Part shown: in pieces, positions 1-56,833 of the stretch
Numbering within the stretch: position 1 is the first letter of the stretch
Layout: every line of letters starts with the position of its first letter
Source: an uncultured virus (IMG/VR IMGVR_UViG_3300025759_000061)
Lineage: Duplodnaviria > Heunggongvirae > Uroviricota > Caudoviricetes
Direction: 5' to 3' (one strand)
IMG/VR virus record: IMGVR_UViG_3300025759_000061
Location: 62,001-118,833 of that record
DNA length: 56,833 bases
The notes under the pieces: model-generated
Told to the model about the DNA's origin: nothing
Seen by the model: the letters and a program-made list of their open reading frames with translations, nothing else
Database searches by the model: none
Made by a program: the position numbers and the translations under genes

Positions 1-75
1 GGTACAATCCCATTCTTGGATGTTGCCAAGCCACGTGCTGATGTTATGACACTGGACCGTTTGCTGAAGCAGTAA
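1..75 (+). CDS. 3' end of a CDS entering the window (GTIPFLDVAKPRADVMTLDRLLKQ*)
   Basis: Open frame from base 1 to TAA 73-75, followed by a terminator. Confidence 0.55.
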   Translation, partial: GTIPFLDVAKPRADVMTLDRLLKQ

Positions 76-95
76 AATATCTACATGTCAACAAA

Positions 96-123
96 GGGTG
101 GGATTTCGGTCCCACCTTTTTTT
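96..123 (+). terminator. Rho-independent terminator with UUCG loop
   Basis: ggtgggat-ttcg-gtcccacc followed by a T tract. Confidence 0.9.
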
Positions 124-129
124 ATTGCC

Positions 130-137
130 TATAAATA
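130..137 (+). promoter_or_regulatory. T4-type late promoter TATAAATA
   Basis: Exact T4 gp55 late consensus just upstream of the glucosaminidase gene. Confidence 0.75.
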
Positions 138-155
138 CAGGAAGGGAGTGGTTAG

Positions 156-584
156 ATGTCGGACATAGAGGGTTTTAAGGGGTACTGGGACGTGTTTGAG
201 GCTTCTGAGACACTGGGAGACCCATATCCCCAGTTAACGGCTGCACAGTGGGCCTTAGAGAGTTCTTGGGGTAAGAGAATGTCAGGGAATAACAACCCGT
301 TTGGCCAGAAGGGCCGGGTTGGTGAGGATGATGTCACGTTCAGGATGACATGGGAGATTATCGACGGTGAACGGGTTGAACGGGAAGAGCCGTTCATGAA
401 CTACCCATCTTTGTATGATGCCATGCTTGACCGGTACAATAGGTGGATAGTTTTATATAGCCGTGCAGAAAGTGTTGAAGAAGCTATTGACATACTTCTG
501 GAAAACTGGTATGCAACAGATACAGATTACAAAGAGAAGATTCTTGCAGTGATTGAGACTGCCAAGAAAAACACAGGACCATGA
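156..584 (+). CDS. GH73/FlgJ-like glucosaminidase (peptidoglycan hydrolase)
   Basis: AQWALESSWG, NNPFGQKG and YATD motifs. Confidence 0.85.
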   Translation: MSDIEGFKGYWDVFEASETLGDPYPQLTAAQWALESSWGKRMSGNNNPFGQKGRVGEDDVTFRMTWEIIDGERVEREEPFMNYPSLYDAMLDRYNRWIVLYSRAESVEEAIDILLENWYATDTDYKEKILAVIETAKKNTGP

Positions 585-650
585 ACCAATGAATCATTAC
601 CACGAGCTTGACAACCTGTAAGTACAATTCCGTACTTATAGGAGACAGAA

Positions 651-938
651 ATGTCTAAAACATATCGTCGAATGGGTAACTGTGACAGGTGGTATAACCG
701 TCCGTTTACTTATGGTGGTCTTGTCAGAGAAGACCCGGAATTTGATGAAAAGCAGAAACGGGAATTCCATAACGACAAGTTGACTCATTCCAGTGGGAAC
801 AAGACTTACAAAGCTCTTTGCAAAAAGACTCGTCGTAGCCGGTGGAGATATGATGCAGCCATGATCATGAAAGATGTGGACCATGACTGGATCGAAACAA
901 AGAAGCTTGAGAAGAAACATATCTGGTCTGTCTGGTGA
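651..938 (+). CDS. hypothetical protein
   Basis: ORF with AGGAG RBS. Confidence 0.7.
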   Translation: MSKTYRRMGNCDRWYNRPFTYGGLVREDPEFDEKQKREFHNDKLTHSSGNKTYKALCKKTRRSRWRYDAAMIMKDVDHDWIETKKLEKKHIWSVW

Positions 939-945
939 GTGAGGA

Positions 946-1545
946 ATGAATGTGAACCCTTTTGATTTGAAAACATTGGTGTTGAATGCAAACTACCAGC
1001 CGGTAGACTTGTTTCCACTGATGGTGATACCAGTACAGGATGCCGTGGGTAGATGCTACTCCGGTGAGCCGACATGCCGGGTTGAGGTTGAGTATCCAAT
1101 AGAGATTGCCAACCGGAATGCACGGTGGAGCCTTAAGTGGCCGTCCATCATTGTCCGATTTAATACCAACATCTATCATAAAGATCACGTTCATATGAAC
1201 CACACGACTCTGTTCTACAGGGACATGGGGTTATGTGCATATTGTTCAAACCATGTTCCCATCCGGAAGGGTACGATTGATCACGTTCAGCCTATCTCAA
1301 AGGGTGGTAAGAACGTCTGGACAAACGTTGTCTGGTCGTGTGGGACTTGTAATGCCAAGAAAGATAACCATCTTCCAAAGGGTGAGTGGACACCACGAAA
1401 CAGGTTGTGGGTGCCCACATACTGGGACTTGGTGAGACATTGTAAGAAGTTTCCACTAACGGTTTATGACATTAGGTGGATGGATTATCTTCCGGATTGG
1501 GAAGGTGAAATTAGATTATGGGAGAATTATGATGTCAGAGGTTGA
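946..1545 (+). CDS. HNH endonuclease (McrA-like)
   Basis: LVLNANYQP N-terminus; CAYC...TIDHVQPISKGG...WTNVVWSCGTCN. Confidence 0.9.
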   Translation: MNVNPFDLKTLVLNANYQPVDLFPLMVIPVQDAVGRCYSGEPTCRVEVEYPIEIANRNARWSLKWPSIIVRFNTNIYHKDHVHMNHTTLFYRDMGLCAYCSNHVPIRKGTIDHVQPISKGGKNVWTNVVWSCGTCNAKKDNHLPKGEWTPRNRLWVPTYWDLVRHCKKFPLTVYDIRWMDYLPDWEGEIRLWENYDVRG

Positions 1546-3092: not shown

Positions 3093-3167
3093 GCCAGTGT
3101 GGCCGAATGGTAAGGCAACACCTTTGTAACGTGAAGATTAGGGGTTCGATTCCTCTCACTGGCACCA
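3093..3167 (+). tRNA. tRNA-Thr(UGU), imperfect anticodon stem
   Basis: GCCAGTG/CACTGGC acceptor, TTCGATT T-loop, loop TT-TGT-AA, encoded CCA. Confidence 0.8.
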
Positions 3168-3187
3168 CAAACATGAAAGTATGAGTT

Positions 3188-3358
3188 ATGGGTGAACAAG
3201 TATCAATGAAGAATATGAAGCCGTACCGGACCAAGAAGCAGAAGCTGGAAGCCAAGAAGAATGCAACCAAGTCCAAGGATGGGACGTTTCGGTCATTCTC
3301 TGCTGTTTCTTATCATACGGATAAGTGTGGTCCACACCTCTGTGTGTGCCCACGGTAA
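3188..3358 (+). CDS. small basic hypothetical protein (56 aa, not in ORF track)
   Basis: MGEQVSMKNMKPYRTKKQKLEAKK...HLCVCPR* fills the gap between two tRNAs. Confidence 0.45.
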   Translation: MGEQVSMKNMKPYRTKKQKLEAKKNATKSKDGTFRSFSAVSYHTDKCGPHLCVCPR

Positions 3359-3367
3359 AACAATAAC

Positions 3368-3444
3368 GGTCACGTAGCTCAACTGGACAGAGCAAAAAGC
3401 TTCTACCTTTTAGGTTGAGGGTTCGAATCCTTCCGTGATCACCA
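3368..3444 (+). tRNA. tRNA-Arg(UCU)
   Basis: Cloverleaf with AAAAG-CT-TCT-AC-CTTTT anticodon arm and CCA end. Confidence 0.93.
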
Positions 3445-3449
3445 ATAAC

Positions 3450-3525
3450 GTTGCCGTGCCCGGAATGGTTACGGGCCTGTCTGCAAAGCAGGGATATGTC
3501 GGTTCGATTCCGACCGGCAACTCCA
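3450..3525 (+). tRNA. tRNA-Cys(GCA)
   Basis: Cloverleaf with CCTGT-CT-GCA-AA-GCAGG arm, U discriminator and CCA. Confidence 0.93.
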
Positions 3526-5150: not shown

Positions 5151-5315
5151 ATGTACTACATCAAGCAAATTGCAAAAATTCTCAACGTCAATGAAATGGT
5201 TGCCCGTAAGGTTTTCGAGAGGATGGTCCTTGATTTCTCCGAAGCAAGTCAGGAAGCATTTGAACGTGAAGCCCGGTTCATATATAATCGTTATTTTACC
5301 TTCGACAGTCGGTAA
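5151..5315 (+). CDS. hypothetical early protein
   Basis: ATG directly after cassette RBS. Confidence 0.7.
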   Translation: MYYIKQIAKILNVNEMVARKVFERMVLDFSEASQEAFEREARFIYNRYFTFDSR

Positions 5316-5320
5316 AAAAA

Positions 5321-5383
5321 GGGTTGACTCCGGTCAGCCCTTCTGGCATTATGTATGTGTAGAGAGAAAACAGAGAAAAGGAA
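5321..5383 (+). repeat. early promoter/stem-loop/RBS cassette copy 2
   Basis: First ~40 nt identical to copy 1. Confidence 0.9.
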
Positions 5384-5390
5384 ATCAGAC

Positions 5391-5882
5391 ATGGCCTATA
5401 TTAGCCAAGACAAAAAGAAAGAGCTTGCCCCCAATATCAAAGCCGTACTCAAGAAGTACAACATGAAGGGTTCAATTCGGATTGAACATCATTCCGTCTT
5501 GCATGTGAATATCAAGTCCGGTGATCTGGATGTTATCGGTAACTACCGGAACACCCTTGCTAACCGGGGACATTCTTGGGATGATCATCACCGGAACCGG
5601 TGGATCACCAACCCCGATACTTATCATCAGGGGGTTCATTACCACCTCAATGAGAACTATTCGGGTGAGGTCCTGAACTTCATGGAAGAACTGCTTGCAG
5701 CCATGATGGAAGGTAACCACGACAACTCAGACAGCATGACCGATTATTTTGATGTGGGTTGGTATGCCTACATAAATGTGGGAAATTGGGAAAAGCCATA
5801 CATCCTGACCGGTGAGCCGGAAGCCAAGAGTGAACGGTTGCTGGACCTTGAAGCCCGGTTTTCTGAGAAAGTTGTTGCATAG
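5391..5882 (+). CDS. conserved phage early protein (LPD29-like C-terminal motif)
   Basis: DNSDSMTDYFDVGWY motif; ATG after cassette RBS. Confidence 0.7.
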   Translation: MAYISQDKKKELAPNIKAVLKKYNMKGSIRIEHHSVLHVNIKSGDLDVIGNYRNTLANRGHSWDDHHRNRWITNPDTYHQGVHYHLNENYSGEVLNFMEELLAAMMEGNHDNSDSMTDYFDVGWYAYINVGNWEKPYILTGEPEAKSERLLDLEARFSEKVVA

Positions 5883-5953: not shown

Positions 5954-6027
5954 TCACCTGTGGTGCAACGGTAGCATCTTTGACTCTGAATCAAAAGATA
6001 TAGGTTCGAATCCTATCGGGTGATCCA
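5954..6027 (+). tRNA. tRNA-Gln(CUG)
   Basis: TTTGA-CT-CTG-AA-TCAAA arm, TTCGAAT T-loop, CCA. Confidence 0.9.
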
Positions 6028-6030
6028 AAC

Positions 6031-6312
6031 ATGGAATTGATTATGGACTATCTAACAGAGAGTTTTCACAGCCTGAAAGACCGTGGCTTTTTCCATGCAC
6101 TTGTATGTGTGAGAAAACTGAACAATGAGCAAATACAGGTCATGCATATTTGTGGATATTCCACCAAACCGTCTGAGATAGATCGGGCTGCACTGATTGA
6201 AGAATTGTCAGAAGACAAAGAGCTTGATATGGTTGGTGAGGTTTATGGTCTTGATTATTACATGGTTGAGTTTGATATAATGGAAGAACTGAACAATTCC
6301 CTTGTCGTCTAA
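6031..6312 (+). CDS. hypothetical protein (3' end overlaps tRNA-Gln)
   Basis: ORF filling the gap between tRNAs. Confidence 0.6.
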   Translation: MELIMDYLTESFHSLKDRGFFHALVCVRKLNNEQIQVMHICGYSTKPSEIDRAALIEELSEDKELDMVGEVYGLDYYMVEFDIMEELNNSLVV

Positions 6313-6371
6313 TGGTAGGATAATAGCCTTTGACTCTATAGATGTTGGTTCGAATCCAGCCGGGGGAGCCA
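6298..6371 (+). tRNA. tRNA-Gln(UUG)
   Basis: TCCCTTG/CGGGGGA acceptor, CT-TTG-AC loop, GCCA end. Confidence 0.88.
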
Positions 6372-8461: not shown

Positions 8462-8538
8462 GCCCGTGTAGCCCAATTGGCAGAGGCAACAGATTCAAAC
8501 CCTGTTCAGTGTTGGTTCAAGTCCAACCACGGGCACCA
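8462..8538 (+). tRNA. tRNA-Leu(CAA), short variable loop
   Basis: GCCCGTG/CACGGGC acceptor, TT-CAA-AC loop, ACCA end. Confidence 0.85.
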
Positions 8539-9395: not shown

Positions 9396-9616
9396 TGGAC
9401 AAGCAAACTCTTCTGGACCTGTTTATAAAGACCAGAGAGTGGAGACTTCATTATAGACAGTCTCGTAAGACAGATATTGAAACAGCCTACTGTGCTTGCC
9501 GGGAAGCTGCCATAAAGGATTGTATGCTTGCACTGGGTATGTTAACCCAAGATGAATCATTGGAAATGGAGAAGCTAAAATGGACGTGGACGGACAAAGT
9601 GAAACAGATATGGTAA
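9395..9616 (+). CDS. hypothetical protein
   Basis: TGATG coupling with the upstream gene. Confidence 0.6.
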   Translation: MDKQTLLDLFIKTREWRLHYRQSRKTDIETAYCACREAAIKDCMLALGMLTQDESLEMEKLKWTWTDKVKQIW

Positions 9617-10792: not shown

Positions 10793-10796
10793 TGCC

Positions 10797-14344: not shown

Positions 14345-15897
14345 ATGACCAAAAACTTTTACACCAATGTACGTCAGTACAAGGGACACATTCTTTATAG
14401 GGGTGTCCACTTTGATGAGAATGGTAAGCCAAAACGGGTCGTGAAAAGATCAAATATGAGCCTACCATATATTTGAAGAGTAAAGAAGTGACCGGCTTGA
14501 CCAATATTGATGGCAAGCCGGTTATACCTGTCAAGCCCGGTGATATATGGGACGTTTGGAAATACATCAAACAGTACAAGGACGTTGAGGGTTTTGACGT
14601 ATATGGAAACCTGAAACATGAATATTCTTATATCTATGAGAATTACCCTGACATGGTGCCATATGACAAGAAGTTCATTCTTGTTGTAAACCTTGACATT
14701 GAGGTCATGTCTGAAAATGGATTTCCAGACCCATGGGAGTGCACGGAAGAAATGACGGCAATCTCCATGACGTTTAATGATGACAAGATCATCGTGTTAG
14801 GTCATGACAAGTTTGGACTGATGCCGGATGGTTACAAGACAGACCGTAAAAATCTCAAATACATAGAATGTGAATCTGAAGAGCATCTGTTGAGGATGTT
14901 CCTTGAAATCTGGATCAAGAACTGGCCAGATGTTATCACCGGCTGGAATTCACTGATGTTCGATATGCCATATATCGTCAACCGGATCGGTAAGATTCTT
15001 GGTGAGTCCTACATAGACATGTTGTCACCTTGGGGTGTTGTGGAGTATCAGGAACGTGTGAACGTGGAATGGAATACCCGTGATAAGTTCTATAGCATTT
15101 ATGGGGTTGACCAGATCGATTACATGCTGGCATATAAGAAGTTTGCACCAAGCTCCAAACAGCAGGAAAATCTAAAGCTGGACACGGTTGGGTTCAATGA
15201 GTTGGGGATGTCGAAGCTGGACTATTCAGAAGTCAAGAATCTCCACTCATTGTACAAGATAGATTACCAGAAATATCTTGACTACAACGTAAGAGATATT
15301 GATATCGTATCTGGTCTTGACCGGAAGCTGAGTCTGTTTGACCTGATGTTTGCACTGGCATATACGGCCAAGGTAAACTATGAAGATGTGTTTGCACAGG
15401 TTAGGATGTGGGATGCCATTATGACCAATCACCTTATGTCAAAGGGTGTTGTGGTTAATCCCATGAAAGATAGTTCAAAGGATTCACGTTACAAGGGTGC
15501 CTATGTGAAGCCGGTTCTGGTTGGTATGCATGATTATGTTGCATCATTTGACTTGGACGGCCTGTATCCCCATTTGATGATGGGTTATAATATTTCACCT
15601 GAGACGTTCATTCCTGTTGAAAATTATAATGACCAGATGAAAGAGTTTTCACGTGAGAACCCGATCATAACACCAGACAAATTAGTGAATAGGGAATTCG
15701 ATCTGTCAACACTATATCCATGGAAGGTTAACCTGACCCCAAATGGTGAGTTTTTCAGCACCAACAATGAAAGCTTTCTTGGTGAGGTGATGAGAATTCT
15801 CTATGATGATCGGAAGAAATATAAGAGTATGATGATCGAAGAATTGAAGATGCTTGAGAGTATCAAGGCTGAGAAGGTCAGAAGAGGGTTGGAATGA
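14345..15897 (+). CDS. 43A: DNA polymerase gp43, N-terminal subunit (exonuclease + motif A), with an apparent -1 frameshift near 14425-14450
   Basis: MTKNFYTNV...ILYRG N-terminus in one frame, KIKYEPTIY...DIEV, TGWNS..FD, YNVRD, SFDLDGLYP in another. Confidence 0.9.
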
Positions 15898-16994
15898 ATC
15901 TCGAATCCCTTAGTGATGCTGAGTTGTTGAAGCTTGAAGAGACCACAAACAATCTGGCAACCACATACAACAATCTCCAATTAGCCAAGAAGGTTACATT
16001 GAATAGTGCATACGGTGCTCTGGGTAACCGGTTCTATAGGTGGTTTGATGTACGTCTGGCTTCTGCTATTACTGGTGCTGGTGAACTGGCCATCAAGTGG
16101 ATCATCAAGGATATGAACAAGTTCATGAATGATTATGTGGGCACAAAGGATGAGGATTACATTATTGCAGCAGACACGGACTCCATGTATATCCATCTGG
16201 AAAAAGTGTTGAAGAAGGACCTACAGGATATAACAGACAAAAATGTTCTTCTGGACCATATGAACAAATTCTGTGACGAAACGATTCAACCGGTTATCAA
16301 CAAGTCGTTTGAAAACCTGTCGAAATATATGAATTCATTCGAACAGAAGATGGTGATGAAACGTGAGGTTCTGGCTGATCGTGGGATATGGACAGCCAAG
16401 AAGAACTATGTTCTGAACGTCATGGATGATGAGGGTGTCAGACTTAACGAACCAAAGATCAAGATCAAGGGTTTGGCTGTTATCAAATCGTCAACGGCTC
16501 CAGCCTGTAAGGATAGCATCAAGGAAGCCATCAGGTTGATGATGACGGCTGATAATGATGCCATGATACGGTTCATCAAGAAATTCAAAAAAGAGTATGA
16601 TCAGAGACCCTATGATGAACTGGCAGACATATCATCAGTGAACGGCCTTGAGAAATACCATGATAATAGGACCATATGGGGTAAGAAGTGTCCGAAACAC
16701 ACAAAGGGTGCACTGATCTATAACCACCTATTGAAAAAGCATGGCCTTGAGAACACATATGAAGCCATAAAGGATGGTGAGAAGATCAAGTACATCCACT
16801 TGAAGGAACCGAATCCATATGGATTTGAGATTATTTCATTCCATGACCGGATACCTGAAGAGTTTGGGTTGGAAGAATATGTGGATTACACTCTCCAATT
16901 TCACAAAACATTCTTGAAAAAACTCAAGATCATCACGGATGCAATAGGGTGGCAACATGAAAAATCGTCTGATATTAAAAGCTTATTGGAGTAA
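15894..16994 (+). CDS. 43B: DNA polymerase gp43, C-terminal subunit
   Basis: QLAKKVTLNSAYG, AADTDS, KKNY, KIKGL motifs; ATGA overlap. Confidence 0.93.
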   Translation: MNLESLSDAELLKLEETTNNLATTYNNLQLAKKVTLNSAYGALGNRFYRWFDVRLASAITGAGELAIKWIIKDMNKFMNDYVGTKDEDYIIAADTDSMYIHLEKVLKKDLQDITDKNVLLDHMNKFCDETIQPVINKSFENLSKYMNSFEQKMVMKREVLADRGIWTAKKNYVLNVMDDEGVRLNEPKIKIKGLAVIKSSTAPACKDSIKEAIRLMMTADNDAMIRFIKKFKKEYDQRPYDELADISSVNGLEKYHDNRTIWGKKCPKHTKGALIYNHLLKKHGLENTYEAIKDGEKIKYIHLKEPNPYGFEIISFHDRIPEEFGLEEYVDYTLQFHKTFLKKLKIITDAIGWQHEKSSDIKSLLE

Positions 16995-42101: not shown

Positions 42102-42512
42102 ATGAATATGACTACCACACCTTGGATTTACAACAAAGAACCCCTGACAGAAATCCCCGAAGGCTATTATGGATTTGTCTACCTGATCACCAATAACGTC
42201 ACCCATAAGAAATACGTAGGTCGGAAATTCTTCTATGTGAGCAAGACCCGGCAAGTGAAGCTGAAGAAGAAGAAATACAAAGCTGAGTCTGATTGGCAAG
42301 ACTATTACGGATCGAACAAGACGATACAGGAAGAGGTTGCCAGACTTGGGAAGGGTGCTTTCCATAGGGAAATACTTCACCTATGTAAGACGAAGGGTAC
42401 GGCAAATTATTATGAAGCCAGTGAGATATTCAAACGTGATGCAATTCTCAAAGAAGAGTATTATAATGATTGGATGCATGTGAAAGTTAGCAAGAGCCAT
42501 GTCAAAGAGTAA
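42102..42512 (+). CDS. GIY-YIG family nuclease (short, Seg-like)
   Basis: GFVYLITN...KKYVGRK...YYGS...F.REIL...YYN; CATAAATA at 42077. Confidence 0.85.
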   Translation: MNMTTTPWIYNKEPLTEIPEGYYGFVYLITNNVTHKKYVGRKFFYVSKTRQVKLKKKKYKAESDWQDYYGSNKTIQEEVARLGKGAFHREILHLCKTKGTANYYEASEIFKRDAILKEEYYNDWMHVKVSKSHVKE

Positions 42513-49823: not shown

Positions 49824-50471
49824 GTGTTAAAGAAGCAAACACTTGATGTGAGATACGACAAGGGTTTCAGGGAATACCAGTTGCCTACGGGTGACTGGGT
49901 TCCATCTGTCACCACCATTTTAGGACAGACAAAGCCAGAATCGGCAAAGGCTGGTCTGGAGAACTGGAGAAAAAGGGTTGGTGATGAGGAAGCCGATAGG
50001 ATAACCAAAAGAGCCGGTAGCAATGGTGAGAAGCTACACACAGCTTGTGAGAATTATCTGAAATATGAGGACGTTGAATTTGAAGACGATCCCTTCACCA
50101 AATCTTTGTTCATGAATATAAGACCGGTTCTGGACAGGATAACACCTTTCACCCAAGAAGTTCAATTGTGGTCAACACGACTCAAGACGGCTGGACGGGT
50201 TGATGTTATCGGATTGTTTGACGTTGATATGTCAATTATCGATTTCAAGAATTCCAGAAAGATGAAGAAACGGGAATGGATTGATGACTATTTCATCCAA
50301 GCCACAACCTATTCATTGATGTATTATGAGATGACAGGGTGCTTTGTAAAGAACATCGTCATCCCTATGACTTCGTTGGAAGAGAACTACACCAAGATTT
50401 TCAAAGGTCAGGTGTTGGACTACAAGGATGAAGCCATAAAAAGAATCACTAGCTGGAAAGAACCACCATGA
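49824..50471 (+). CDS. PD-(D/E)XK exonuclease
   Basis: PSVTTIL, WRKRVG, AGRVD, IIDFK, YFIQ...Y. Confidence 0.9.
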   Translation: MLKKQTLDVRYDKGFREYQLPTGDWVPSVTTILGQTKPESAKAGLENWRKRVGDEEADRITKRAGSNGEKLHTACENYLKYEDVEFEDDPFTKSLFMNIRPVLDRITPFTQEVQLWSTRLKTAGRVDVIGLFDVDMSIIDFKNSRKMKKREWIDDYFIQATTYSLMYYEMTGCFVKNIVIPMTSLEENYTKIFKGQVLDYKDEAIKRITSWKEPP

Positions 50472-51418: not shown

Positions 51419-51443
51419 CTCTTTGAGAATGTTCAGGTAGAAC
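51415..51443 (+). promoter_or_regulatory. sigma70-type promoter of ncRNA unit
   Basis: TTGACT-N17-TAGAAC. Confidence 0.6.
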
Positions 51444-51470
51444 TGTAATCAAGAAAGAAGGAAAGAACAA

Positions 51471-51608
51471 ATCAAGTGCTTTGATGGGTTATGGGGTTTG
51501 GCCCCCGTCGATAACCACCACCGTGAAGTTCCTTGTGGTTAAGTGAACAAAACAGTGATCAGATGGCCCGGAAGTCGAGAGCCGGGGTAGCCTTTCAAAG
51601 CACTTGAT
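51471..51608 (+). ncRNA. 138-nt structured RNA of unknown family
   Basis: Perfect 14-bp closing stem ATCAAGTGCTTTGA/TCAAAGCACTTGAT; internal hairpins; no ORF. Confidence 0.7.
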
Positions 51609-51618
51609 AAAGAATTTA

Positions 51619-51710
51619 TGGTTGTGGTCGTTTAATGGAAGACAGTTGATGATTATCTAATCCTTTCTCTAATCATCAAAAGATGTTGGTTCGACTCCAA
51701 CACACAACCA
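51619..51710 (+). ncRNA. tRNA-like RNA with extended anticodon arm carrying an anti-SD loop
   Basis: TGGTTGTG/CACAACCA stem, D-arm GTTTAATGGAAGAC, T-arm GTTGG-TTCGACT-CCAAC, 10-bp arm TTGATGATTA/TAATCATCAA with loop TCTAATCCTTTCTC. Confidence 0.8.
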
Positions 51711-51720
51711 ACCCTATTAG

Positions 51721-51752
51721 CTAGAGGTATTTTCTGTCCTTTCTCCCTCTAG
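51721..51752 (+). ncRNA. hairpin with second TCCTTTCTC loop
   Basis: CTAGAGG/CCTCTAG stem, loop TATTTTCTGTCCTTTCTC. Confidence 0.7.
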
Positions 51753-51760
51753 GAAACTTG

Positions 51761-51797
51761 ACACCCCTTGGATTAATTTCCATAGGGGTGTTTTTTT
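51761..51797 (+). terminator. Rho-independent terminator closing the ncRNA unit
   Basis: acacccct..tgga/tcca..aggggtgt + T tract. Confidence 0.88.
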
Positions 51798-51852
51798 GTT
51801 GACACCAATCTCAGATATGCTATTGTGTAGACATAAGAGGAAAGGACACATT

Positions 51853-52032
51853 ATGGATTTCAAATTTTACATTGAGCATCATGGAGCAGTAGACCTGTTT
51901 TCCCGTGAGGGTTTCAACGAAAAGGAAGCTGCCCGTGCATATGCATCCGGTCTGGTATCCAGTCTGGAAGATGGTGACTTCATCAAGTTTGTTGAAGCTG
52001 ATGAGTTTTATGACAAGAATGAGTATGTGTAA
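51853..52032 (+). CDS. small early protein
   Basis: TTGACA...GCTATT promoter; GAAAGGA RBS. Confidence 0.65.
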   Translation: MDFKFYIEHHGAVDLFSREGFNEKEAARAYASGLVSSLEDGDFIKFVEADEFYDKNEYV

Positions 52033-52050
52033 CTAGAAAGGAAACAAGTT

Positions 52051-52329
52051 ATGATACTGAACAAGCCAATTATCCGTGTTGAGCCTGCCGATGGTACAGA
52101 TGGTCTATCCCGGTTCTACACGAGCCTGAAACCTGCACTGAAGTATGCAGTCCAACAGGTCCGGAAGGGTGTTGATGGTCCTGACTATGGGTCACAAGCC
52201 TATGTGTCGAGTACGGATATTGACTTCAAGTCCCTGAACGTGTTCCGGAACATTGGTTCTTCCAAAGTGATAGCCGACTATCACAAGGATGATGGAACTA
52301 TCGGTTACTATGATCTGGGAGACCTGTAA
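52051..52329 (+). CDS. hypothetical early protein
   Basis: AGAAAGGA RBS. Confidence 0.7.
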   Translation: MILNKPIIRVEPADGTDGLSRFYTSLKPALKYAVQQVRKGVDGPDYGSQAYVSSTDIDFKSLNVFRNIGSSKVIADYHKDDGTIGYYDLGDL

Positions 52330-52330
52330 G

Positions 52331-52660
52331 ATGTGTGAAGTTCTGACATTTGAAGAGTTTGCTACCCAACGTGGTCTTGCACCATCATGGGGTGATGCCG
52401 GTCTCCATTCAGGTGCTGCACATGTGCCGAAAAGATCACGGAAACGTCATCTCCAACTGGTAGCAGAAAAAGATGCTGCACTGCAACGTGCCCGTGACCT
52501 GTTGAGGGATGTTTATGCTGGTCGGGTGGAACAAGGTTTGATCAAACCACCAAGCCACTACCAGAGAATCCGAAAGACTGCCATGGGTCATCAGGATAAT
52601 GAATCTGTCCAAGCTGCCCGTAAAATCCTCTTGAAAACATATGGTGAAGAAATCACTTGA
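52331..52660 (+). CDS. hypothetical protein
   Basis: GGAG RBS; GHQDNESVQAARK. Confidence 0.7.
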   Translation: MCEVLTFEEFATQRGLAPSWGDAGLHSGAAHVPKRSRKRHLQLVAEKDAALQRARDLLRDVYAGRVEQGLIKPPSHYQRIRKTAMGHQDNESVQAARKILLKTYGEEIT

Positions 52661-52684
52661 CTCCATGTCTCCATGTGCTATTAT
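52657..52684 (+). promoter_or_regulatory. early promoter (copy of the 4341 promoter)
   Basis: TTGACT...GCTATTAT. Confidence 0.75.
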
Positions 52685-52723
52685 CTAGTTATAAGAGAGA
52701 AACAGAGAGAAAGGAACTAAGAA

Positions 52724-53104
52724 ATGGGTATGAAATTTGAAGAGTATCAAATAGTACATGGAATTGACCTGAAACAGGGTTGGGTAGCAACCAATGCACA
52801 CAAGCCAGTGAAGATCAACAAGAACACTAAAGATAAGTATGAACTGTGGGTTGATGGTGATTATAAAGCCCAGTATGATACATTTGACATAGCAACCCGG
52901 TATGCAGAAGCACAGGTTTCCTTCCACACACCATACCAGAACCCAGTCAAACCCGACACAGTGGAACTGACTGCTTGGGATGTTGCAGCACTGGAACACT
53001 CTGTTAACGTAGCCATCGAAGCCGGAAGCATCCACCGGGAAAGTGGTGAAGCCCTGCTGAAAAAGTTCAAGGGTGCCTTTGGTGTGACCCTCAAATATTC
53101 GTGA
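52724..53104 (+). CDS. hypothetical early protein
   Basis: AGAGAAAGGA RBS. Confidence 0.75.
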   Translation: MGMKFEEYQIVHGIDLKQGWVATNAHKPVKINKNTKDKYELWVDGDYKAQYDTFDIATRYAEAQVSFHTPYQNPVKPDTVELTAWDVAALEHSVNVAIEAGSIHRESGEALLKKFKGAFGVTLKYS

Positions 53105-53110
53105 AAGAAA

Positions 53111-53172
53111 GGGTTGACTCCGGTCAGCCCTTCTGGCATTATATGGGTATAGAGAGAAACACGAGAAAGGAA
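53111..53172 (+). repeat. early cassette copy 3
   Basis: gggttgactccggtcagcccttctggcattat...gagaaagga. Confidence 0.9.
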
Positions 53173-53178
53173 CTCCCC

Positions 53179-53448
53179 ATGAAGAATTTGGTCCCACCGG
53201 TAGTTAACATGAACGGTAACAGCAAAAGTGATCTGGTCAATCAGATCATGAACATTGCCAACCAGTTGGAAGATGCTGTTGGTGCTCTCTACAGCACGGA
53301 CATTTACCACGGTCGGAATTTCCAGACCTGCCACAATTCGGAAGAAGTTCGGGATGCTGCCATTGCTGCCTTGGGTGAACGGATTGAAGCCTTGCAGGAG
53401 ATGAAGATGGATTTTGTCCGGATGGGTATGGAAGTCTCCGGACATTGA
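53179..53448 (+). CDS. hypothetical early protein
   Basis: ATG after cassette RBS; PVVNMNGNS...HGRNFQ. Confidence 0.75.
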   Translation: MKNLVPPVVNMNGNSKSDLVNQIMNIANQLEDAVGALYSTDIYHGRNFQTCHNSEEVRDAAIAALGERIEALQEMKMDFVRMGMEVSGH

Positions 53449-53455
53449 AAATTAG

Positions 53456-53517
53456 GGGTTGACTCCGGTCAGCCCTTCTGGCATTCTCTGGGTATAGAGA
53501 GAAGCAAGAGAAAGGAA
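53456..53517 (+). repeat. early cassette copy 4
   Basis: Same core; -10 CATTCT. Confidence 0.9.
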
Positions 53518-53525
53518 ACGAGACG

Positions 53526-53774
53526 ATGACGAAACTTTCACCCAACCAGATTGAGACCATGAAAACTCTTTCCAACCATGTTGGTGAAGAAGTTTGGGTT
53601 CTCACCAGCCAAGCCACTGCCAATGTTCCTAGTAGCTTCGTTCGTAAAGCAGTGACCACAACCAAAAAACCCACTCTTGCAGGTCTGGAAAAAAAGGGTT
53701 ACATTAAAATCGTATCCACATACTGGAAGGGTGCAACAATCAAAATATTGAAAGGGTATGATGATGACATTTAA
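53526..53774 (+). CDS. hypothetical early protein (possible winged helix)
   Basis: LSPNQ...TLAGLEKKGYI. Confidence 0.7.
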   Translation: MTKLSPNQIETMKTLSNHVGEEVWVLTSQATANVPSSFVRKAVTTTKKPTLAGLEKKGYIKIVSTYWKGATIKILKGYDDDI

Positions 53775-53793
53775 CCAATGGAATGAAAATTAG

Positions 53794-53857
53794 GGGTTGA
53801 CATGAGTCGGCCCTTCTGGCATTATGTATGTGTAGTCAGAAAACAGAGAGAAAGGAA
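53794..53857 (+). repeat. early cassette copy 5 (loop variant ATGA)
   Basis: gggttgac-atga-gtcggccc retains pairing. Confidence 0.88.
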
Positions 53858-53864
53858 CTCCAAA

Positions 53865-54044
53865 ATGACTTTTACAGAAGCCCTTCAGATTATCCATGAC
53901 GAATATGGTCAGGACACTTTGGTTGCACTCGAAAACATCCAGCATGATCTGGATGATGATGGAGACGGTTGGGTGGGAACCGAAGTCCGGGAAGCCTATG
54001 ATGTTGCCATGGGTGGTTTCCGGAACTTGTTTGCTCCAGCCTGA
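53865..54044 (+). CDS. small early protein
   Basis: ATG after cassette RBS. Confidence 0.7.
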   Translation: MTFTEALQIIHDEYGQDTLVALENIQHDLDDDGDGWVGTEVREAYDVAMGGFRNLFAPA

Positions 54045-54052
54045 AAAGAAAA

Positions 54053-54116
54053 GGGTTGACTTCGGTCAGCCCTTGTGGCACTCTCTGGTCATAAGAGAGA
54101 AACACGAAGAAAGGAA
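54053..54116 (+). repeat. early cassette copy 6 (loop variant TTCG)
   Basis: gggttgac-ttcg-gtcagccc. Confidence 0.88.
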
Positions 54117-54121
54117 ACCAA

Positions 54122-54298
54122 ATGTTCAAGATTGAATTTGATACCGGAAACGATGCTTTTCAGGATGGTCTGGGTGATCTGGAGATTGCTCGTATCCTCT
54201 CACACCTCAAGAACAACATTCTAAATGGTATCACTGAGGGTGGTGTCTACGATATGAACGGTAACAAGGTTGGAACCTACGAATGGGAGCAGTCATGA
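54122..54298 (+). CDS. small conserved phage protein (58 aa, not in ORF track)
   Basis: MFKIEFDTGNDAF...EIARIL...DMNGNKVG. Confidence 0.75.
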   Translation: MFKIEFDTGNDAFQDGLGDLEIARILSHLKNNILNGITEGGVYDMNGNKVGTYEWEQS

Positions 54299-54459
54299 GT
54301 AAGATTGAAGAGAAGAAGAACAAACGTATACACGAAAATCCCGGATTGTACGGGTATCGTGAAGGGATTGGTCCGGAAGAGATTGATCAGTTTGAAGCAG
54401 AGTTGGATAAACTCTATGGTCCTGCTGAAACCATCACACTCACGAAGAGGTTCAAATGA
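54295..54459 (+). CDS. small hypothetical protein (54 aa, not in ORF track)
   Basis: ATGA overlaps at both ends, GGAG RBS. Confidence 0.65.
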   Translation: MSKIEEKKNKRIHENPGLYGYREGIGPEEIDQFEAELDKLYGPAETITLTKRFK

Positions 54460-54680
54460 GCAAATTCAACTGGGATGATGTTGTGTACAAAGACCCACGT
54501 GGGAAGAACAACACAACTTTCGTTGTAACCCATAGGGACATAACCGGTATGGTTGGTCCACAAGACAAATACTCCATGTGGGTTCTCGACAAGGGTAGTA
54601 AGGTCTTGGACGATCTTGGATCACACATCTCAATTGATGGTGCAAAAGCATTTGCAGAACACAGGGGTCTTGTAGGATGA
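54456..54680 (+). CDS. hypothetical protein
   Basis: GAGG RBS, ATGA overlap. Confidence 0.7.
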   Translation: MSKFNWDDVVYKDPRGKNNTTFVVTHRDITGMVGPQDKYSMWVLDKGSKVLDDLGSHISIDGAKAFAEHRGLVG

Positions 54681-54919
54681 AACCACTGGATGACACAAAA
54701 GCCGACCGGAACAAGAGGATTCTTGAACAGGTCCGGAAACTCACACTTGGTGATGTCCGTGAACATCTGGAAAATGTTGATGGACTCATGTGGATTGAAG
54801 TCAACATTCTTGATCCAATCAATGTGAGCCGGAAGTTTGCAGAAGATGCAGAAGACATCATGTTCAGGGAAATTGATGAGTTGTCAATTGAACAAACCCT
54901 GAAAGGTTTTATGGGTTGA
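54677..54919 (+). CDS. hypothetical protein
   Basis: ATGA overlap; stop codon lies inside the next cassette. Confidence 0.7.
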   Translation: MKPLDDTKADRNKRILEQVRKLTLGDVREHLENVDGLMWIEVNILDPINVSRKFAEDAEDIMFREIDELSIEQTLKGFMG

Positions 54920-54975
54920 CTCCGGTCAGCCCTTGTGGCATTCTCTGGGTATAGAGAGAAACACGAAGAAAGGAA
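54913..54975 (+). repeat. early cassette copy 7
   Basis: Same core and agagagaaacacgaagaaagga leader. Confidence 0.9.
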
Positions 54976-54976
54976 T

Positions 54977-55318
54977 ATGAAAATGGGATATGGTTTGACT
55001 GTAAAAGCTGATGAGACTCTGGGACTGATCCAGAAGAATTTCTCAGCCGGTGATGGTTCTTCAAACAGCATCAAGTTTCCAAACGGATTGACTGGGTTCT
55101 TTGAAGTGAGCCGGAAGGATCAGCCAGATGGTGGGGTTGCCGGAACCGTGCAACGTCAGTTGAATGCCAAGGAAAAATCCTACTGGGAAGCCCGTAACGT
55201 TGAAGTGACAGACACTATGGTGGTGCCTGCCGGGTCGTTCAAGATCAATGGTGATGGTAAGGTCATCCGGTTTGCCGGTCTGCCAGTTGCCAAGATCAAC
55301 AAGGAGCTTGGAGCATGA
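54977..55318 (+). CDS. hypothetical early protein
   Basis: After cassette RBS; GSFKINGDGKVIRF. Confidence 0.75.
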   Translation: MKMGYGLTVKADETLGLIQKNFSAGDGSSNSIKFPNGLTGFFEVSRKDQPDGGVAGTVQRQLNAKEKSYWEARNVEVTDTMVVPAGSFKINGDGKVIRFAGLPVAKINKELGA

Positions 55319-55644
55319 CATTACGTTCACAACCGGGAACAGAAAACAACAAAGTCAAGATTGGTGGGAAGACCACCCTTCATGGTGATCCAAAAATCAA
55401 ACCTGAGAAACCATACACCATTATCGGTTTTCCCGGTGGTGATGTTGAAATCTCACGGACCAGTGATAACAAATACTGGATTCATGTACGGGTGGAACAG
55501 GGGAGTGAACTGTTTCAAAATGGTGTTATTCTGGATGCCCGTGTAGATGCCAAGGGACGGTATACGGAAATCAATGATGTTCTCCGTACAGAACTGGACA
55601 AAGGTGATATTGATCACATTGCATTCTTGGTAGGTGAAGCATGA
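55315..55644 (+). CDS. hypothetical protein
   Basis: ATGA overlap; FPGGDVEISRT..YW. Confidence 0.75.
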   Translation: MTLRSQPGTENNKVKIGGKTTLHGDPKIKPEKPYTIIGFPGGDVEISRTSDNKYWIHVRVEQGSELFQNGVILDARVDAKGRYTEINDVLRTELDKGDIDHIAFLVGEA

Positions 55645-56369
55645 TACCCGTCAACACCACGATCAGTTTGATGCACGGAACTTCATCAGCCAACACAGCC
55701 TCTATCATAAATGAAGGTATCCAACCACGTAAGGGTTTGGGTAACTGGTATAGAGCTTATCAGAACCCTTCTGACAGCCGTTTCACATATCTGACCAATA
55801 ACCGTGCATCTGCTGATCTTTATGCCATCAGGGCTGCTCTTATCGACGGGAGTAAGTGTTCCATCGTGGAAGTCACCACGGATGATGAACCACTCTATCC
55901 GGATGAGAACTTTTTCAACAAAACCGGGCTTTATGACAAAGCCGATGCAAAGAAGATGCAGTCACGGATCAAGAGAAACAAACGAAGGTGGGTGGAGTGC
56001 CTTGAAAAAAGAGGTTTGGTGACACATCTTGGTGGGGTCCCACGTGAGAAAATAGTGAAACATGAAGAGTATGATGTCACAGAGTCACTGTTCTACTTTT
56101 TCCTGAAGCCGTTTCCGGATCACGAGAGGGATATTGACCGGTTTGATTACGTATTCAATGCTTGGTTACATATAGAACAGAACCGGTATTTCAAAGATGT
56201 TATCTTTCCTTACTTCGGAGACTTCAAAGAGATGATCAAAAATCTAACCATAGTCACTGTTGAAGAAGGAATAGAATTTCGTTTTGGAAAGAATTTCCGA
56301 GAAATATTTTTGGACGAAACATATGAAGAGTATTATGAAAGGAACTGTCTTGAAAAATCCAGCCACTAA
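55641..56369 (+). CDS. putative ADP-ribosyltransferase-fold protein (HYx/Tpt1-like)
   Basis: LMHGTS....SIINEGIQP, FTYLT, A.LYA, IVEV. Confidence 0.6.
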   Translation: MIPVNTTISLMHGTSSANTASIINEGIQPRKGLGNWYRAYQNPSDSRFTYLTNNRASADLYAIRAALIDGSKCSIVEVTTDDEPLYPDENFFNKTGLYDKADAKKMQSRIKRNKRRWVECLEKRGLVTHLGGVPREKIVKHEEYDVTESLFYFFLKPFPDHERDIDRFDYVFNAWLHIEQNRYFKDVIFPYFGDFKEMIKNLTIVTVEEGIEFRFGKNFREIFLDETYEEYYERNCLEKSSH

Positions 56370-56595
56370 ACCATCTTCCGAAATGAACGATTTCACCAAC
56401 TATGTCATTAAAAACAAAGGTTGTTTTGTCAGAGTCCGATGTGGTTTCTGGGTAAGACCGGAATTTGAAGCTGCTGAAGACGATACATGTTCCGATGGTT
56501 TTGTGACCGATTGTGGTAATTATCGTTGGAATATGGATGGAACCTCTGTCACGGGTCGTGATTATGACATGATGGAAGTTGAAAAAAGTTCTTGA
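56350..56595 (+). CDS. hypothetical protein
   Basis: TTG after GAAAGGA; start uncertain. Confidence 0.55.
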   Translation: MKNPATKPSSEMNDFTNYVIKNKGCFVRVRCGFWVRPEFEAAEDDTCSDGFVTDCGNYRWNMDGTSVTGRDYDMMEVEKSS

Positions 56596-56624
56596 CATTC
56601 GTTCAGAGAAGTGCCATAAATAGT

Positions 56625-56833
56625 CTTGTTAACGTTGAAGGAAACAAAAAGCACTTAAGACTGGGGGGCAGTACCCCACATCTCCACCATGAGCACATTG
56701 AAGTGTTGGCTGTAGAACAAAGCACTCTCGATGTTAGACAGTTTTGTAAAATGACTGATGTGCTCTTGATGGGGATGAAACAGGATCGATTAGGTGAGTA
56801 ATGAGTAACTGGAGTTAACTGGTTGGCCGACTG
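56625..56833 (+). ncRNA. ssrA: circularly permuted (two-piece) tmRNA, truncated by window end
   Basis: GAC-TGGGG-GGCAGTA-CCCCA-CATCTCC-ACCA (to 56689), intervening hairpin, then GGGGATGAAACAGGATCGA (56771); G3.U70 pair. Confidence 0.9.

What the first reader, a model, noticed from the sequence alone, without database searches (positions are those of the whole stretch)
1..56833. The trinucleotide GCG/CGC appears to be absent from the whole window
Seen: reading CG dinucleotides across long stretches of early, replication, late and RNA-gene regions, I found only ACG/CCG/TCG and CGA/CGG/CGT. I never found GCG or its complement CGC, although CCGG, GGCC, GCNGC, GATC and GANTC are common. Base composition alone would predict hundreds. 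It holds across codon boundaries and in the tRNAs and tmRNA, so it is not codon bias. Avoiding the 4-cutter sites GCGC and CGCG would not remove contexts like AGCGA or TCGCT. Inference: selection acts on a 3-bp double-stranded DNA word. One option is a host defence reading GCG/CGC. The other is a phage nuclease or DNA-modifying toxin that destroys the GCG-rich host chromosome and spares the phage through sequence absence rather than base modification. Candidates in the window are the HNH (946), GIY-YIG (42102), PD-(D/E)XK (49824) and ART-fold (55641) proteins.
Basis: partly seen in the sequence, partly recalled or inferred. Interest (0 to 1): 0.92.

Follow-up and report, generated by a model that had tools for sequence, protein, structure and literature searches.

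The report
Phage genome without any GCG
The complete 162,000-letter genome of an uncultured freshwater T4-like phage holds not one GCG or CGC where over a thousand are expected, which points to an unidentified enzyme that reads this three-letter DNA word.

Summary
Observation confirmed, and it reaches further than the window. GCG and CGC occur 0 times in the window (first-order Markov expectation 230 and 175), in the 118.8-kb record and in the complete 161.7-kb genome of the same virus, G001. For G001 the expectation is 1,201 from its own dinucleotides and about 2,070 from relatives. All 16 NGCGN contexts are empty, so no set of known 4-cutters explains it. The purge was made by context-dependent synonymous choices and by compensated changes in the tmRNA; 0 of 26 tRNAs hold the word. 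It is not an artefact. None of 185 relatives' loci shares it.

The virus is a T4-like myovirus of the Melnitz/pelagimyophage group. It has no DNA methylase. It has also erased CCWGG, GGAGG, RGATCY, CTGCAG and other restriction-type words.

Best reading (about 0.5): selection by a host enzyme that acts on DNA at a bare GCG, evaded by losing the word. A phage-own weapon remains open (about 0.2). The ART fold is confirmed, but three other carriers lack no trinucleotide. I found no report of a complete trinucleotide purge.

The parts
1..56833 (.). Whole window: 0 GCG and 0 CGC. The same holds for the other 105 kb of the complete genome.
3093..3525 (+). tRNA-Thr(tgt), tRNA-Arg(tct) and tRNA-Cys(gca): RNA genes free of the word
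   Evidence: 0 of 26 phage tRNAs hold GCG/CGC; 39 of 55 in relatives' loci
5954..6371 (+). tRNA-Gln(ctg) and tRNA-Gln(ttg), free of the word
8462..8538 (+). tRNA-Leu(caa), free of the word
56588..56833 (+). First part of a permuted (two-piece) alphaproteobacterial-type tmRNA, cut by the window's end. Its acceptor stem reads CAUCUCC/GGGGAUG where the family consensus has CGcCUCC/GGGGgCG: both sides changed, pairing kept.
   Evidence: (RF01849, 130.4 bits)
946..1545 (+). HNH endonuclease (199 aa; HNH_5 at residues 97-144); looks like a common phage McrA-like HNH family
   Evidence: (no relative in IMG/VR by 8-residue words)
42102..42512 (+). Stand-alone GIY-YIG nuclease domain (136 aa, SegE_GIY-YIG, phrog_447); homologues in phages with normal GCG
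49824..50471 (+). PD-(D/E)XK-like exonuclease (phrog_298, E 7.5e-57), next to PhoH in the same order as in Melnitz
55641..56369 (+). ADP-ribosyltransferase-fold protein (242 aa) with conserved H12, Y50 and E89; nearest solved folds Tpt1/KptA and DarT1; probably an early gene; target unknown
51419..55640 (.). Block of small ORFs without family matches, between the HtrA-like protease and the ART gene, with at least four copies of a ~70-nt early-promoter cassette (TTGACT-N17-CATTAT plus a conserved leader). Melnitz shows no protease or ART between its PDDEXK nuclease and its tmRNA.
14473..16994 (+). Family B DNA polymerase in two ORFs. In Melnitz a C5 DNA methylase follows this gene; here none does.

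Best explanation
Natural selection has purged the word, because an enzyme met in infection acts on DNA wherever GCG stands on either strand. The phage has no DNA methylase and no sign of base-modification genes, so it protects itself only by not having the word. It does the same for CCWGG, GGAGG/CCTCC, RGATCY, CTGCAG and about ten other restriction-type words. It could be a restriction-type nuclease or nickase with a bare 3-bp site. It could also be an infection-triggered short-motif DNA toxin of the DarT kind; such a toxin needs no protection of the host genome, which would explain how so frequent a word can be a target. Shown: the total absence, its strand symmetry, its silent and compensated nature, its restriction to this lineage, and the lack of methylases. 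Inferred: that one enzyme reads GCG, and that the host encodes it.
For: (1) 0 words against 1,201-2,072 expected, and every one of 16 flanking contexts empty. The six contexts with neither a C before nor a C or G after the word (AGCGA, AGCGT, GGCGA, GGCGT, TGCGA, TGCGT) hold none of GCGC, CGCG or CCGC, yet about 1,116 are expected. (2) Both strands are equally empty although 194 of 228 called ORFs lie on the + strand. An RNA-level reader of one word would spare the complement. (3) The purge is silent. Arg after a G-ending codon is AGR in 287 of 287 cases, against 876 of 1,945 after other codons. Ala follows a C-ending codon in 0 of 2,880 cases. NGC codons precede G in 0 of 741, and NCG codons precede C in 0 of 937. 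At 231 of 334 GCG/CGC words in the 12 closest gp23 genes this phage keeps identical residues. (4) The genome follows a general word-loss strategy: CCWGG 0 of 252 expected, GGAGG/CCTCC 0/93, CCGAG 1/44, AGATCC 0/44, CTGCAG 0/38, CAGCTG 0/28, GAGCCC 0/27, CCCGGG 0/21 and others. No match to PF00145, PF01555 or PF02086 in six frames, and no methylase among the 191 ORFs scanned with Pfam. (5) Relatives show other, host-specific profiles. Melnitz has GATC 4/186, CGCG 0/17 and CCGG 3/17, and carries a C5 methylase. CGCG is strongly depleted in 20 relatives' loci and GCGC in 2. So enzymes aimed at GCG-containing sites do press on this phage group. (6) Short-motif DNA toxins used in defence exist. DarT2 reads a four-base motif, TNTC; the guanine-specific DarT1 is favoured by two G one base apart (PMC11543638, passages).
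Against: No natural nuclease, methylase or DNA toxin with a bare GCG specificity turned up in what I searched. The only GCG-specific enzyme I found is an engineered M.HhaI variant (PMC2790894, abstract in the listing). The host is unknown. The alpha-type tmRNA is a trait of this phage group and not of the present host (PMC9004378, passages). No unrelated phage without GCG was found, which a host-driven purge predicts: 22 endolysin relatives have o/e 0.77-1.30. But these are at most 52% identical, and nothing shows that they share the host. A restriction enzyme of this kind would force its host to methylate every GCG. The phage does carry its own nucleases, a nucleic-acid-type ART and many early ORFs of unknown function, so a weapon of its own is not excluded.
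Confidence: 0.5

Rival explanations
1. The phage's own weapon. An early phage enzyme (a nuclease, a nickase or the ART-fold protein) attacks DNA at GCG and wrecks the host chromosome. The phage is immune because it has no such word, where T4 uses modified cytosine and chloroviruses use methylation.
For: The absence is total, also in genes of mobile type (HNH, two GIY-YIG) and in RNA genes, as expected if the danger comes with every infection. The phage has no modification genes and yet carries nucleases of the T4 set: gp46/47, a stand-alone GIY-YIG domain, HNH and PD-(D/E)XK. It has an ART whose nearest solved folds act on nucleic acids: Tpt1 Z 10.3 (rmsd 2.3, 88 aligned), DarT1 Z 7.6 (rmsd 3.8, 136 aligned). 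That gene lies after a lineage-specific block of ORFs with early-promoter cassettes. Only this lineage shows the purge.
Against: No phage protein is tied to GCG. The ART family is common (183 clusters), and 3 of 3 other carrier loci lack no trinucleotide. The GIY-YIG and PD-(D/E)XK genes occur in relatives with normal GCG. The HNH looks like a common family. The path is harder: a genome with about 2,000 sites cannot bear such an enzyme unless its specificity loosened step by step. The many other erased restriction words already need host enzymes.
Confidence: 0.2
2. No single reader. The purge is the sum of avoidance of many longer GCG-containing restriction sites held across the host population (GCGC, CGCG, CCGC, RGCGCY, GACGC and so on).
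For: CGCG and GCGC avoidance is seen among relatives (Melnitz). This genome avoids at least a dozen different words.
Against: The six contexts with neither a C before nor a C or G after the word, about 1,116 expected words, belong to no known 4-cutter and are all empty. In 185 relatives' loci no other NGCG/GCGN word is ever strongly depleted. Covering all 16 contexts needs at least six further 5-bp specificities, each strong enough to reach zero.
Confidence: 0.1
3. Loss of a CRISPR PAM: GCG is the protospacer-adjacent motif of the host's CRISPR-Cas system, and its loss on both strands blocks both spacer uptake and interference.
For: Only that the word is short and absent on both strands. No call gives direct support.
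Against: Selection per PAM copy is weak and PAM reading is usually tolerant, so a count of exactly zero out of more than 1,200 is not expected (my own reasoning). I know of no GCG PAM (recalled). The host is unknown.
Confidence: 0.03
4. Not selection on the word: a sequencing or assembly artefact, a hidden modified base read as another letter, or a mutational bias.
For: None found.
Against: Two records agree at 99.99%. Contigs of four further studies match with 0-7 differences per 170-590 nt. In gp23, 172 of 177 conserved columns are kept, and the 5 deviations touch neither Ala nor Arg. The tmRNA stem changed at two positions on each side and keeps its pairing. Mutation alone cannot hold a count at zero when 5.4% of all possible substitutions would create the word.
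Confidence: 0.02

Closest known systems
Restriction-site avoidance in virulent dsDNA phages.
   Same: Strand-symmetric loss of short words, achieved silently, differing between related phages according to host. It is seen here for CCWGG, RGATCY, CTGCAG and others, and in Melnitz for GATC, CGCG and CCGG.
   Different: Known cases concern words of 4-6 bp that match known enzymes. Here the word has 3 bp, is not a palindrome, is wholly absent from 162 kb, and matches no known enzyme.
Self-sparing destruction of host DNA by viruses: T4 EndoII/EndoIV with modified cytosine (PMC1635256, abstract seen in the listing); chlorovirus frequent-cutting nickases such as Nt.CviPII with methylated viral DNA (papers listed, not read; its CCD site is recalled).
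   Same: Viral enzymes with 1-3-base preferences that ruin host DNA while the viral genome is exempt.
   Different: There the exemption is a base modification. Here no modification genes are found, and the exemption would be the absence of the word. No such enzyme is shown in this phage.
DarTG defence: DarT ADP-ribosylates single-stranded DNA at short motifs (PMC11543638, passages; PMC11825919, abstract in the listing)
   Same: A defence toxin that reads about three specified bases on DNA, acts against T4-like phages and needs no protection of the host genome. The phage also holds an ART of a related fold.
   Different: The known motifs are TNTC and a loose G-N-G, not GCG. Known phage escapes are antitoxin-like enzymes, not loss of the motif. 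No DarT or DarG family was reported among the ORFs scanned with Pfam.
Trinucleotide-specific toxins and phage avoidance at the RNA level: MazF (ACA) and RNA coliphages (PMC12151602, passages)
   Same: A three-letter word read by a toxin and under-represented in phage genomes.
   Different: RNA, one strand, and mild (mean relative frequency 0.83). Here it is DNA, both strands, and complete.
Engineered GCG-specific M.HhaI hemimethylase (PMC2790894, abstract in the listing)
   Same: Shows that a protein can read bare GCG on DNA, reached from a GCGC enzyme by a five-residue deletion together with random mutagenesis and selection.
   Different: Man-made. No natural counterpart was found.

Membership tests
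Restriction-site avoidance in phage genomes | The word is far below a composition-based expectation | tested here: met
   0 against 1,201 (Markov) or 2,072 (relatives)
Restriction-site avoidance in phage genomes | Depletion equal on both strands | tested here: met
   GCG 0 and CGC 0 on the + strand
Restriction-site avoidance in phage genomes | The word is the recognition site of an enzyme of the host | not testable with these tools
   The host is unknown. The tmRNA type does not name it, and a search of 401 genomes of the class gave only short conserved matches. No GCG enzyme was found in the papers searched.
Restriction-site avoidance in phage genomes | The profile differs between relatives with other hosts | tested here: met
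   In the 163 gp23 and polymerase relatives' loci GCG+CGC o/e is 0.52-1.91; in the 22 endolysin relatives 0.77-1.30. Melnitz avoids other words.
Self-sparing viral attack on host DNA (T4, chlorovirus type) | A viral enzyme that acts on DNA at the word | not testable with these tools
   Nucleases and an ART are present, but their specificity cannot be read from sequence.
Self-sparing viral attack on host DNA (T4, chlorovirus type) | The viral DNA is exempt through base modification | tested here: not met
   No DNA methylase in six frames. Among the ORFs scanned with Pfam, thymidylate synthesis is represented only by ThyX; no hydroxymethylase-type family was reported.
DarT-type DNA ADP-ribosyltransferase (for window 55641-56369) | ART fold with a conserved His-Tyr-Glu set | tested here: met
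   AlphaFold2 pLDDT 90.7. H12 is invariant; Y50 and E89 are kept in at least 90% of 60 sequences. 17 of 60 members match Pfam PARP.
DarT-type DNA ADP-ribosyltransferase (for window 55641-56369) | Closest to DarT among ARTs | tested here: inconclusive
   Tpt1/KptA ranks first (Z 10.3, rmsd 2.3, 88 aligned); DarT1 has Z 7.6 (rmsd 3.8, 136 aligned). With the family profile, Tpt1 has E 0.0088 and DarT1 E 0.16. The Atlas names a viral 'DarT domain' cluster at score 0.96.
DarT-type DNA ADP-ribosyltransferase (for window 55641-56369) | Carriers spare themselves by lacking the motif | tested here: not met
   3 of 3 other carrier loci (24-42% identity) lack no trinucleotide. The sample is small and their specificities may differ.

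The most novel reading that the evidence does not exclude
The phage carries its own GCG-reading DNA weapon: an early nuclease, or the Tpt1/DarT-like ADP-ribosyltransferase at 55641-56369. It cripples the host chromosome at every GCG, and the phage's only immunity is that its 162-kb genome, RNA genes included, has been rewritten to contain none. Self would then be told from non-self by the absence of a trinucleotide and not by a chemical mark.
Probability: 0.18. Interest if true: 0.95.

Novelty: new variant of a known kind. Interest (0 to 1): 0.85.

Why it matters
Word avoidance in phages is normally read as the footprint of an enzyme. A footprint of three base pairs that is empty in all 16 contexts over 162 kb predicts an enzyme class not yet described in nature: a DNA nuclease, nickase or base-modifying toxin with a bare GCG specificity, in the host or in the phage. 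The sequence names the target before the enzyme is known, so the enzyme can be sought directly with substrates that do or do not carry GCG. It also shows how far silent recoding can go in a natural virus: more than a thousand sites, all tRNAs and a tmRNA, with no sign of protein-level cost in gp23. That sets a natural upper mark for escape by loss of a sequence. If the weapon reading is right, it would be a new way for a virus to tell its own DNA from the host's.

Tried and rejected
1. Closer relatives, to date the purge. The loci tried were 3 polymerase relatives, 80 IMG/VR and 80 metagenome gp23 relatives, the HNH and the HtrA-like protease (only the phage itself) and the early-promoter cassette (only itself). 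The nearest relative has 77% gp23 identity and normal GCG, so the onset cannot be placed.

2. Unrelated GCG-free phages through the endolysin: none among 22 loci. They are distant (at most 52% identity) and nothing shows that they share the host.

3. The host.
- A pattern for the tmRNA tag in genome contigs gave two metagenome-assembled genomes.
- The tmRNA against 401 genomes of that class matched only short conserved parts in 17.
- The Melnitz paper shows that this tmRNA type travels with the phage group.
I therefore dropped my first guesses, a cyanobacterial and then an alphaproteobacterial host.

4. Natural variants. 0 of the 40 variants listed create the word, where about 2 are expected. 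The power is too low, and 202 further variants were not shown.

5. The candidate nucleases against the loci held. This was uninformative for the replication-region genes, because the loci lie around gp23 and PhoH and RNase H gave no hit either.

6. PDB sequence searches of the GIY-YIG and the ART protein: nothing useful.

7. Earlier notes of this scan: no other trinucleotide case, and no notes on this genome.

8. A hidden-base artefact and RNA-level selection: rejected.

Full report
THE OBSERVATION.

The window has 0 GCG and 0 CGC. Base composition predicts 599 and 457, and a first-order Markov model predicts 230 and 175. The other 62 trinucleotides have o/e between 0.61 and 1.68.

The window is the last 56.8 kb of a 118,833-bp virus record that is equally empty (0/0 against 492/372). 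The same virus is also held as a complete record, G001: 161,858 bp with a 123-bp terminal repeat, rated 100% complete. I fetched all of it. It covers G000 at 99.99% identity and has no GCG or CGC anywhere.
- From its own dinucleotides, 664 + 537 = 1,201 words are expected.
- This figure is itself too low, because the purge has lowered CG and GC (o/e 0.54 and 0.72).
- Scaled from 86 relatives' loci of similar G+C, about 2,072 are expected.

Each of the 16 NGCGN contexts is empty against 40 to 225 expected. The six contexts with neither a C before nor a C or G after the word (AGCGA, AGCGT, GGCGA, GGCGT, TGCGA, TGCGT) hold none of GCGC, CGCG or CCGC. They alone account for about 1,116 expected words.

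His side remarks hold in the window too: CCGG 247, GGCC 98, GATC 257, GANTC 207, and GCNGC 65, all as GCWGC.

IS IT REAL?

Yes, on four grounds.

1. Codon context, in 228 called ORFs.
- Ala GCG and Arg CGC are never used.
- After a codon ending in G, Arg is AGA or AGG in 287 of 287 cases. After other codons CGN makes up 1,069 of 1,945.
- Ala never follows a codon ending in C (0 of 2,880).
- AGC, TGC and GGC are never followed by G (0 of 741, against 1,290 of 2,794 for their T-ending synonyms).
- TCG, CCG and ACG are never followed by C (0 of 937, against 690 of 3,335 for TCA, CCA and ACA).

2. Proteins are kept.
- The 12 closest gp23 genes hold 11 to 40 words each, 334 in all. At 231 of those places this phage encodes identical residues without the word.
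- At 177 highly conserved gp23 columns it deviates 5 times, never at Ala or Arg.

3. RNA genes.
- 0 of 26 tRNAs hold the word, against 39 of 55 in relatives' loci.
- The tmRNA acceptor stem reads CAUCUCC/GGGGAUG where the family consensus has CGcCUCC/GGGGgCG. Two positions changed on each side and pairing is kept.

4. Independent data.
- The DNA is found in runs of 10 studies, two of which may be its sources.
- Contigs of four other studies match pieces of 170-590 nt with 0 to 7 differences.
- None of the 40 listed variants creates the word, but only about 2 would be expected, so this adds little.

WHAT THE GENOME IS.

It is a T4-like myovirus.
- Structural genes: gp23, gp20, gp17, gp18, gp15, gp6, gp8, gp25 and gp53.
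- Replication and repair: gp32, gp59, gp45, gp44/62, UvsW, UvsX, UvsY, gp46/47, RNase H, primase, a DnaB-like helicase and a family B polymerase in two ORFs.
- Nucleotide and other metabolism: ThyX, dCMP deaminase, dNMP kinase, class II ribonucleotide reductase, PhoH, and NAMPT with a cytidylyltransferase-like/NUDIX protein.
- It also has a sugar-nucleotide and glycosyltransferase cluster.
- It carries 26 or 27 tRNAs and a permuted tmRNA (the tRNA-Cys spans a locus join).

By gp23 its nearest cultured relatives are Methylophilales phage Melnitz (67%), Pelagibacter phages Mosig and HTVC008M (64-66%) and marine cyanomyoviruses. The runs that hold it are labelled freshwater, estuary and sediment.

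The host is unknown. The alpha-type tmRNA (RF01849, 130 bits) also occurs in Melnitz, which infects a non-alphaproteobacterial host, and in 17 of 47 contigs of that group (PMC9004378, passages). It therefore does not name the host.

WHERE THE PURGE OCCURS.

Only here.
- Three polymerase relatives at 35-37% identity have normal counts.
- 80 IMG/VR gp23 relatives at 60-76% identity have GCG+CGC o/e of 0.57 to 1.37, median 1.00.
- 80 metagenome relatives at 58-77% have 0.52 to 1.91, median 0.92. The closest of them (77%, on a 166.7-kb contig) has 0.86.
- 22 endolysin relatives have 0.77 to 1.30.
- Melnitz has 178/187 and 138/134.

The HNH, the protease, the ART protein and the early-promoter cassette find only this phage in IMG/VR. 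The lineage is thus one species-level population, and the point where the purge arose cannot be placed.

THE CONTEXT THAT SHAPES THE READING.

The genome has erased much more than GCG. Counting both strands and using a maximal-order Markov expectation:
- CCWGG 0 of 252
- GGAGG/CCTCC 0 of 93
- CCGAG/CTCGG 1 of 44
- CCTCG/CGAGG 2 of 30
- AGATCC 0 of 44, AGATCT 0 of 26, GGATCC 0 of 19
- CTGCAG 0 of 38
- CAGCTG and CAGCTC 0 of 28 each
- GAGCCC 0 of 27
- CCCGGG 0 of 21, GCCGGC 0 of 20, GGTACC 0 of 20
- GACGTC 0 of 17, AGTACT 0 of 14, CGATCG 0 of 13

It has no DNA methylase. None appears among the 191 ORFs scanned, and PF00145, PF01555 and PF02086 find nothing in six frames of the whole genome while their controls respond.

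Melnitz, by contrast, carries a C5 methylase directly after its polymerase gene (best PDB match 8yf3_A, E 6e-76). Homologues of it lie in three further relatives' loci, and this genome has none (best tblastn E 0.97).

Relatives have purge profiles of their own. Melnitz has GATC 4 of 186, CGCG 0 of 17 and CCGG 3 of 17. Over 185 relatives' loci, CGCG is strongly depleted in 20 and GCGC in 2, while no other NGCG or GCGN word is ever strongly depleted.

So this phage group lives under restriction-type pressure that differs from host to host, some of it aimed at GCG-containing sites. This member answers only by losing words.

HOW IT MOST LIKELY WORKS.

An enzyme met in infection acts on DNA at GCG on either strand. 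Each remaining copy costs fitness, and selection has driven the count to zero and holds it there. It must hold it actively: 5.4% of all possible single substitutions would create the word.

The symmetry between strands rules out a reader of mRNA, since 194 of 228 ORFs lie on one strand. A sum of longer sites is unlikely for the reasons given above.

Whether the enzyme belongs to the host or to the phage is not shown. I favour the host (about 0.5) for three reasons.
- The other erased words already require host enzymes.
- Relatives show host-specific profiles.
- The path is easy: with an enzyme already in place, every lost site gives the same gain.

One difficulty is that a restriction enzyme with a 3-bp site would oblige its host to methylate every GCG. 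An infection-triggered toxin avoids this, because it needs no protection of the host's genome. DarT enzymes are of this kind. DarT2 ADP-ribosylates single-stranded DNA at a four-base motif, TNTC. The guanine-specific DarT1 is favoured by two G one base apart, and no consensus motif was identified for it (PMC11543638, passages). DarTG1 acts against T4-like phages (PMC11825919, abstract only). A GCG-reading relative is my inference, not a finding.

THE PHAGE-WEAPON READING (about 0.2).

- The HNH (946-1545) looks like common phage McrA-like HNH clusters.
- The 136-residue GIY-YIG (42102-42512) is a bare catalytic domain of a widespread family (phrog_447). It has 55%-identical homologues in loci with normal GCG.
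- The PD-(D/E)XK-like exonuclease (49824-50471, phrog_298) sits beside PhoH in the same order as in Melnitz.

The ART claim is confirmed.
- The protein at 55641-56369 has 183 relatives at E up to 0.001 in the representative library.
- H12 is invariant, and Y50 and E89 are kept in at least 90% of 60 aligned sequences.
- 17 of 60 members match Pfam PARP and 4 match Tpt1.
- The AlphaFold2 model has pLDDT 90.7.
- Foldseek gives ART-fold hits only, with low TM.
- The second-look aligner puts Tpt1/KptA first (Z 10.3, rmsd 2.3, 88 aligned) and E. coli DarT1 at Z 7.6 (rmsd 3.8, 136 aligned).
- The Atlas names a viral 'DarT domain' cluster at score 0.96.

This ART is therefore not of the T4 Alt/Mod kind (that comparison is recalled, not tested) and may act on nucleic acid. 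It lies after a roughly 4-kb block of ORFs without family matches that carries repeated early-promoter cassettes.

However, the three other carrier loci I could fetch (42%, 31% and 24% identity) lack no trinucleotide. Nothing links any phage protein to GCG.

WHAT IS KNOWN.

Searches for a reported trinucleotide purge or a natural GCG enzyme found none.
- The two metagenome methylome papers I opened mention only GCGC-type motifs in the passages found.
- The only GCG-specific enzyme found is an engineered M.HhaI variant (PMC2790894, abstract in the listing).
- The nearest analogue for a three-letter word is MazF (ACA) and RNA coliphages, where the depletion is mild (mean 0.83) and on RNA (PMC12151602, passages).
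- Earlier notes of this scan describe purges of 4- and 5-letter words in other phages and giant viruses, none of a trinucleotide.

I could not see supplements, and the library lacks most subscription journals, so an older report may exist.

VERDICT.

The inference of selection on a 3-bp DNA word is supported, but the agent is unidentified. I class it as a new variant of a known kind (word avoidance) that predicts an enzyme specificity not yet described. Interest 0.85.

Noticed in passing
whole genome; e.g. upstream of ORF starts in the window: GGAGG/CCTCC is absent on both strands (0 of 93 expected). No ribosome-binding site uses GGAGG (0 of 194 upstream regions); AAGG/AGGA (43 each) and GGAGA (17) are used instead.
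   Followed up: partly
window 14441: This is the first point where the window and the complete record G001 differ: one C is missing here just upstream of the polymerase start. The whole overlap is 99.999% identical. Contigs of two other runs carry the C. With it the first polymerase ORF is longer (517 against 474 aa).
   Followed up: partly
window 14473-16994: The family B DNA polymerase is in two ORFs that overlap by 4 bases (474 + 366 aa). In Melnitz it is one gene.
   Followed up: no
window 5300-5400, 53090-53190, 53442-53542, 53780-53880, 54899-54999, and further copies in G001: A ~70-nt repeated cassette: TTGACT, 17 bases, CATTAT, then a conserved leader with AAAGGAA and an ATG. It probably marks early promoters in front of small ORFs of unknown function.
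   Followed up: partly
G001 156910-159350 (L020:16910-19350), outside the window: NAMPT and a cytidylyltransferase-like/NUDIX protein side by side. This looks like a phage NAD+ salvage pair, of interest beside an NAD-using ART.
   Followed up: no
G001 8946-21163 (L013:8946 to L014:1163), outside the window: A cluster of GT2, GT10 (fucosyltransferase) and GT1 glycosyltransferases, an FkbM methyltransferase, a HAD/nucleotidyl transferase and an epimerase/dehydratase. Its target (cell surface, virion or DNA) is unknown.
   Followed up: no
Melnitz record, L221 1-50000: The closest cultured relative avoids GATC (4 of 186), CGCG (0 of 17) and CCGG (3 of 17) while carrying a C5 methylase of unknown specificity annotated 'hhaIM'.
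   Followed up: partly
loci L184, L190, L191/L192 (endolysin relatives): CCWGG is nearly absent (0-1 in about 20 kb) in several distant relatives whose GCG is normal.
   Followed up: no
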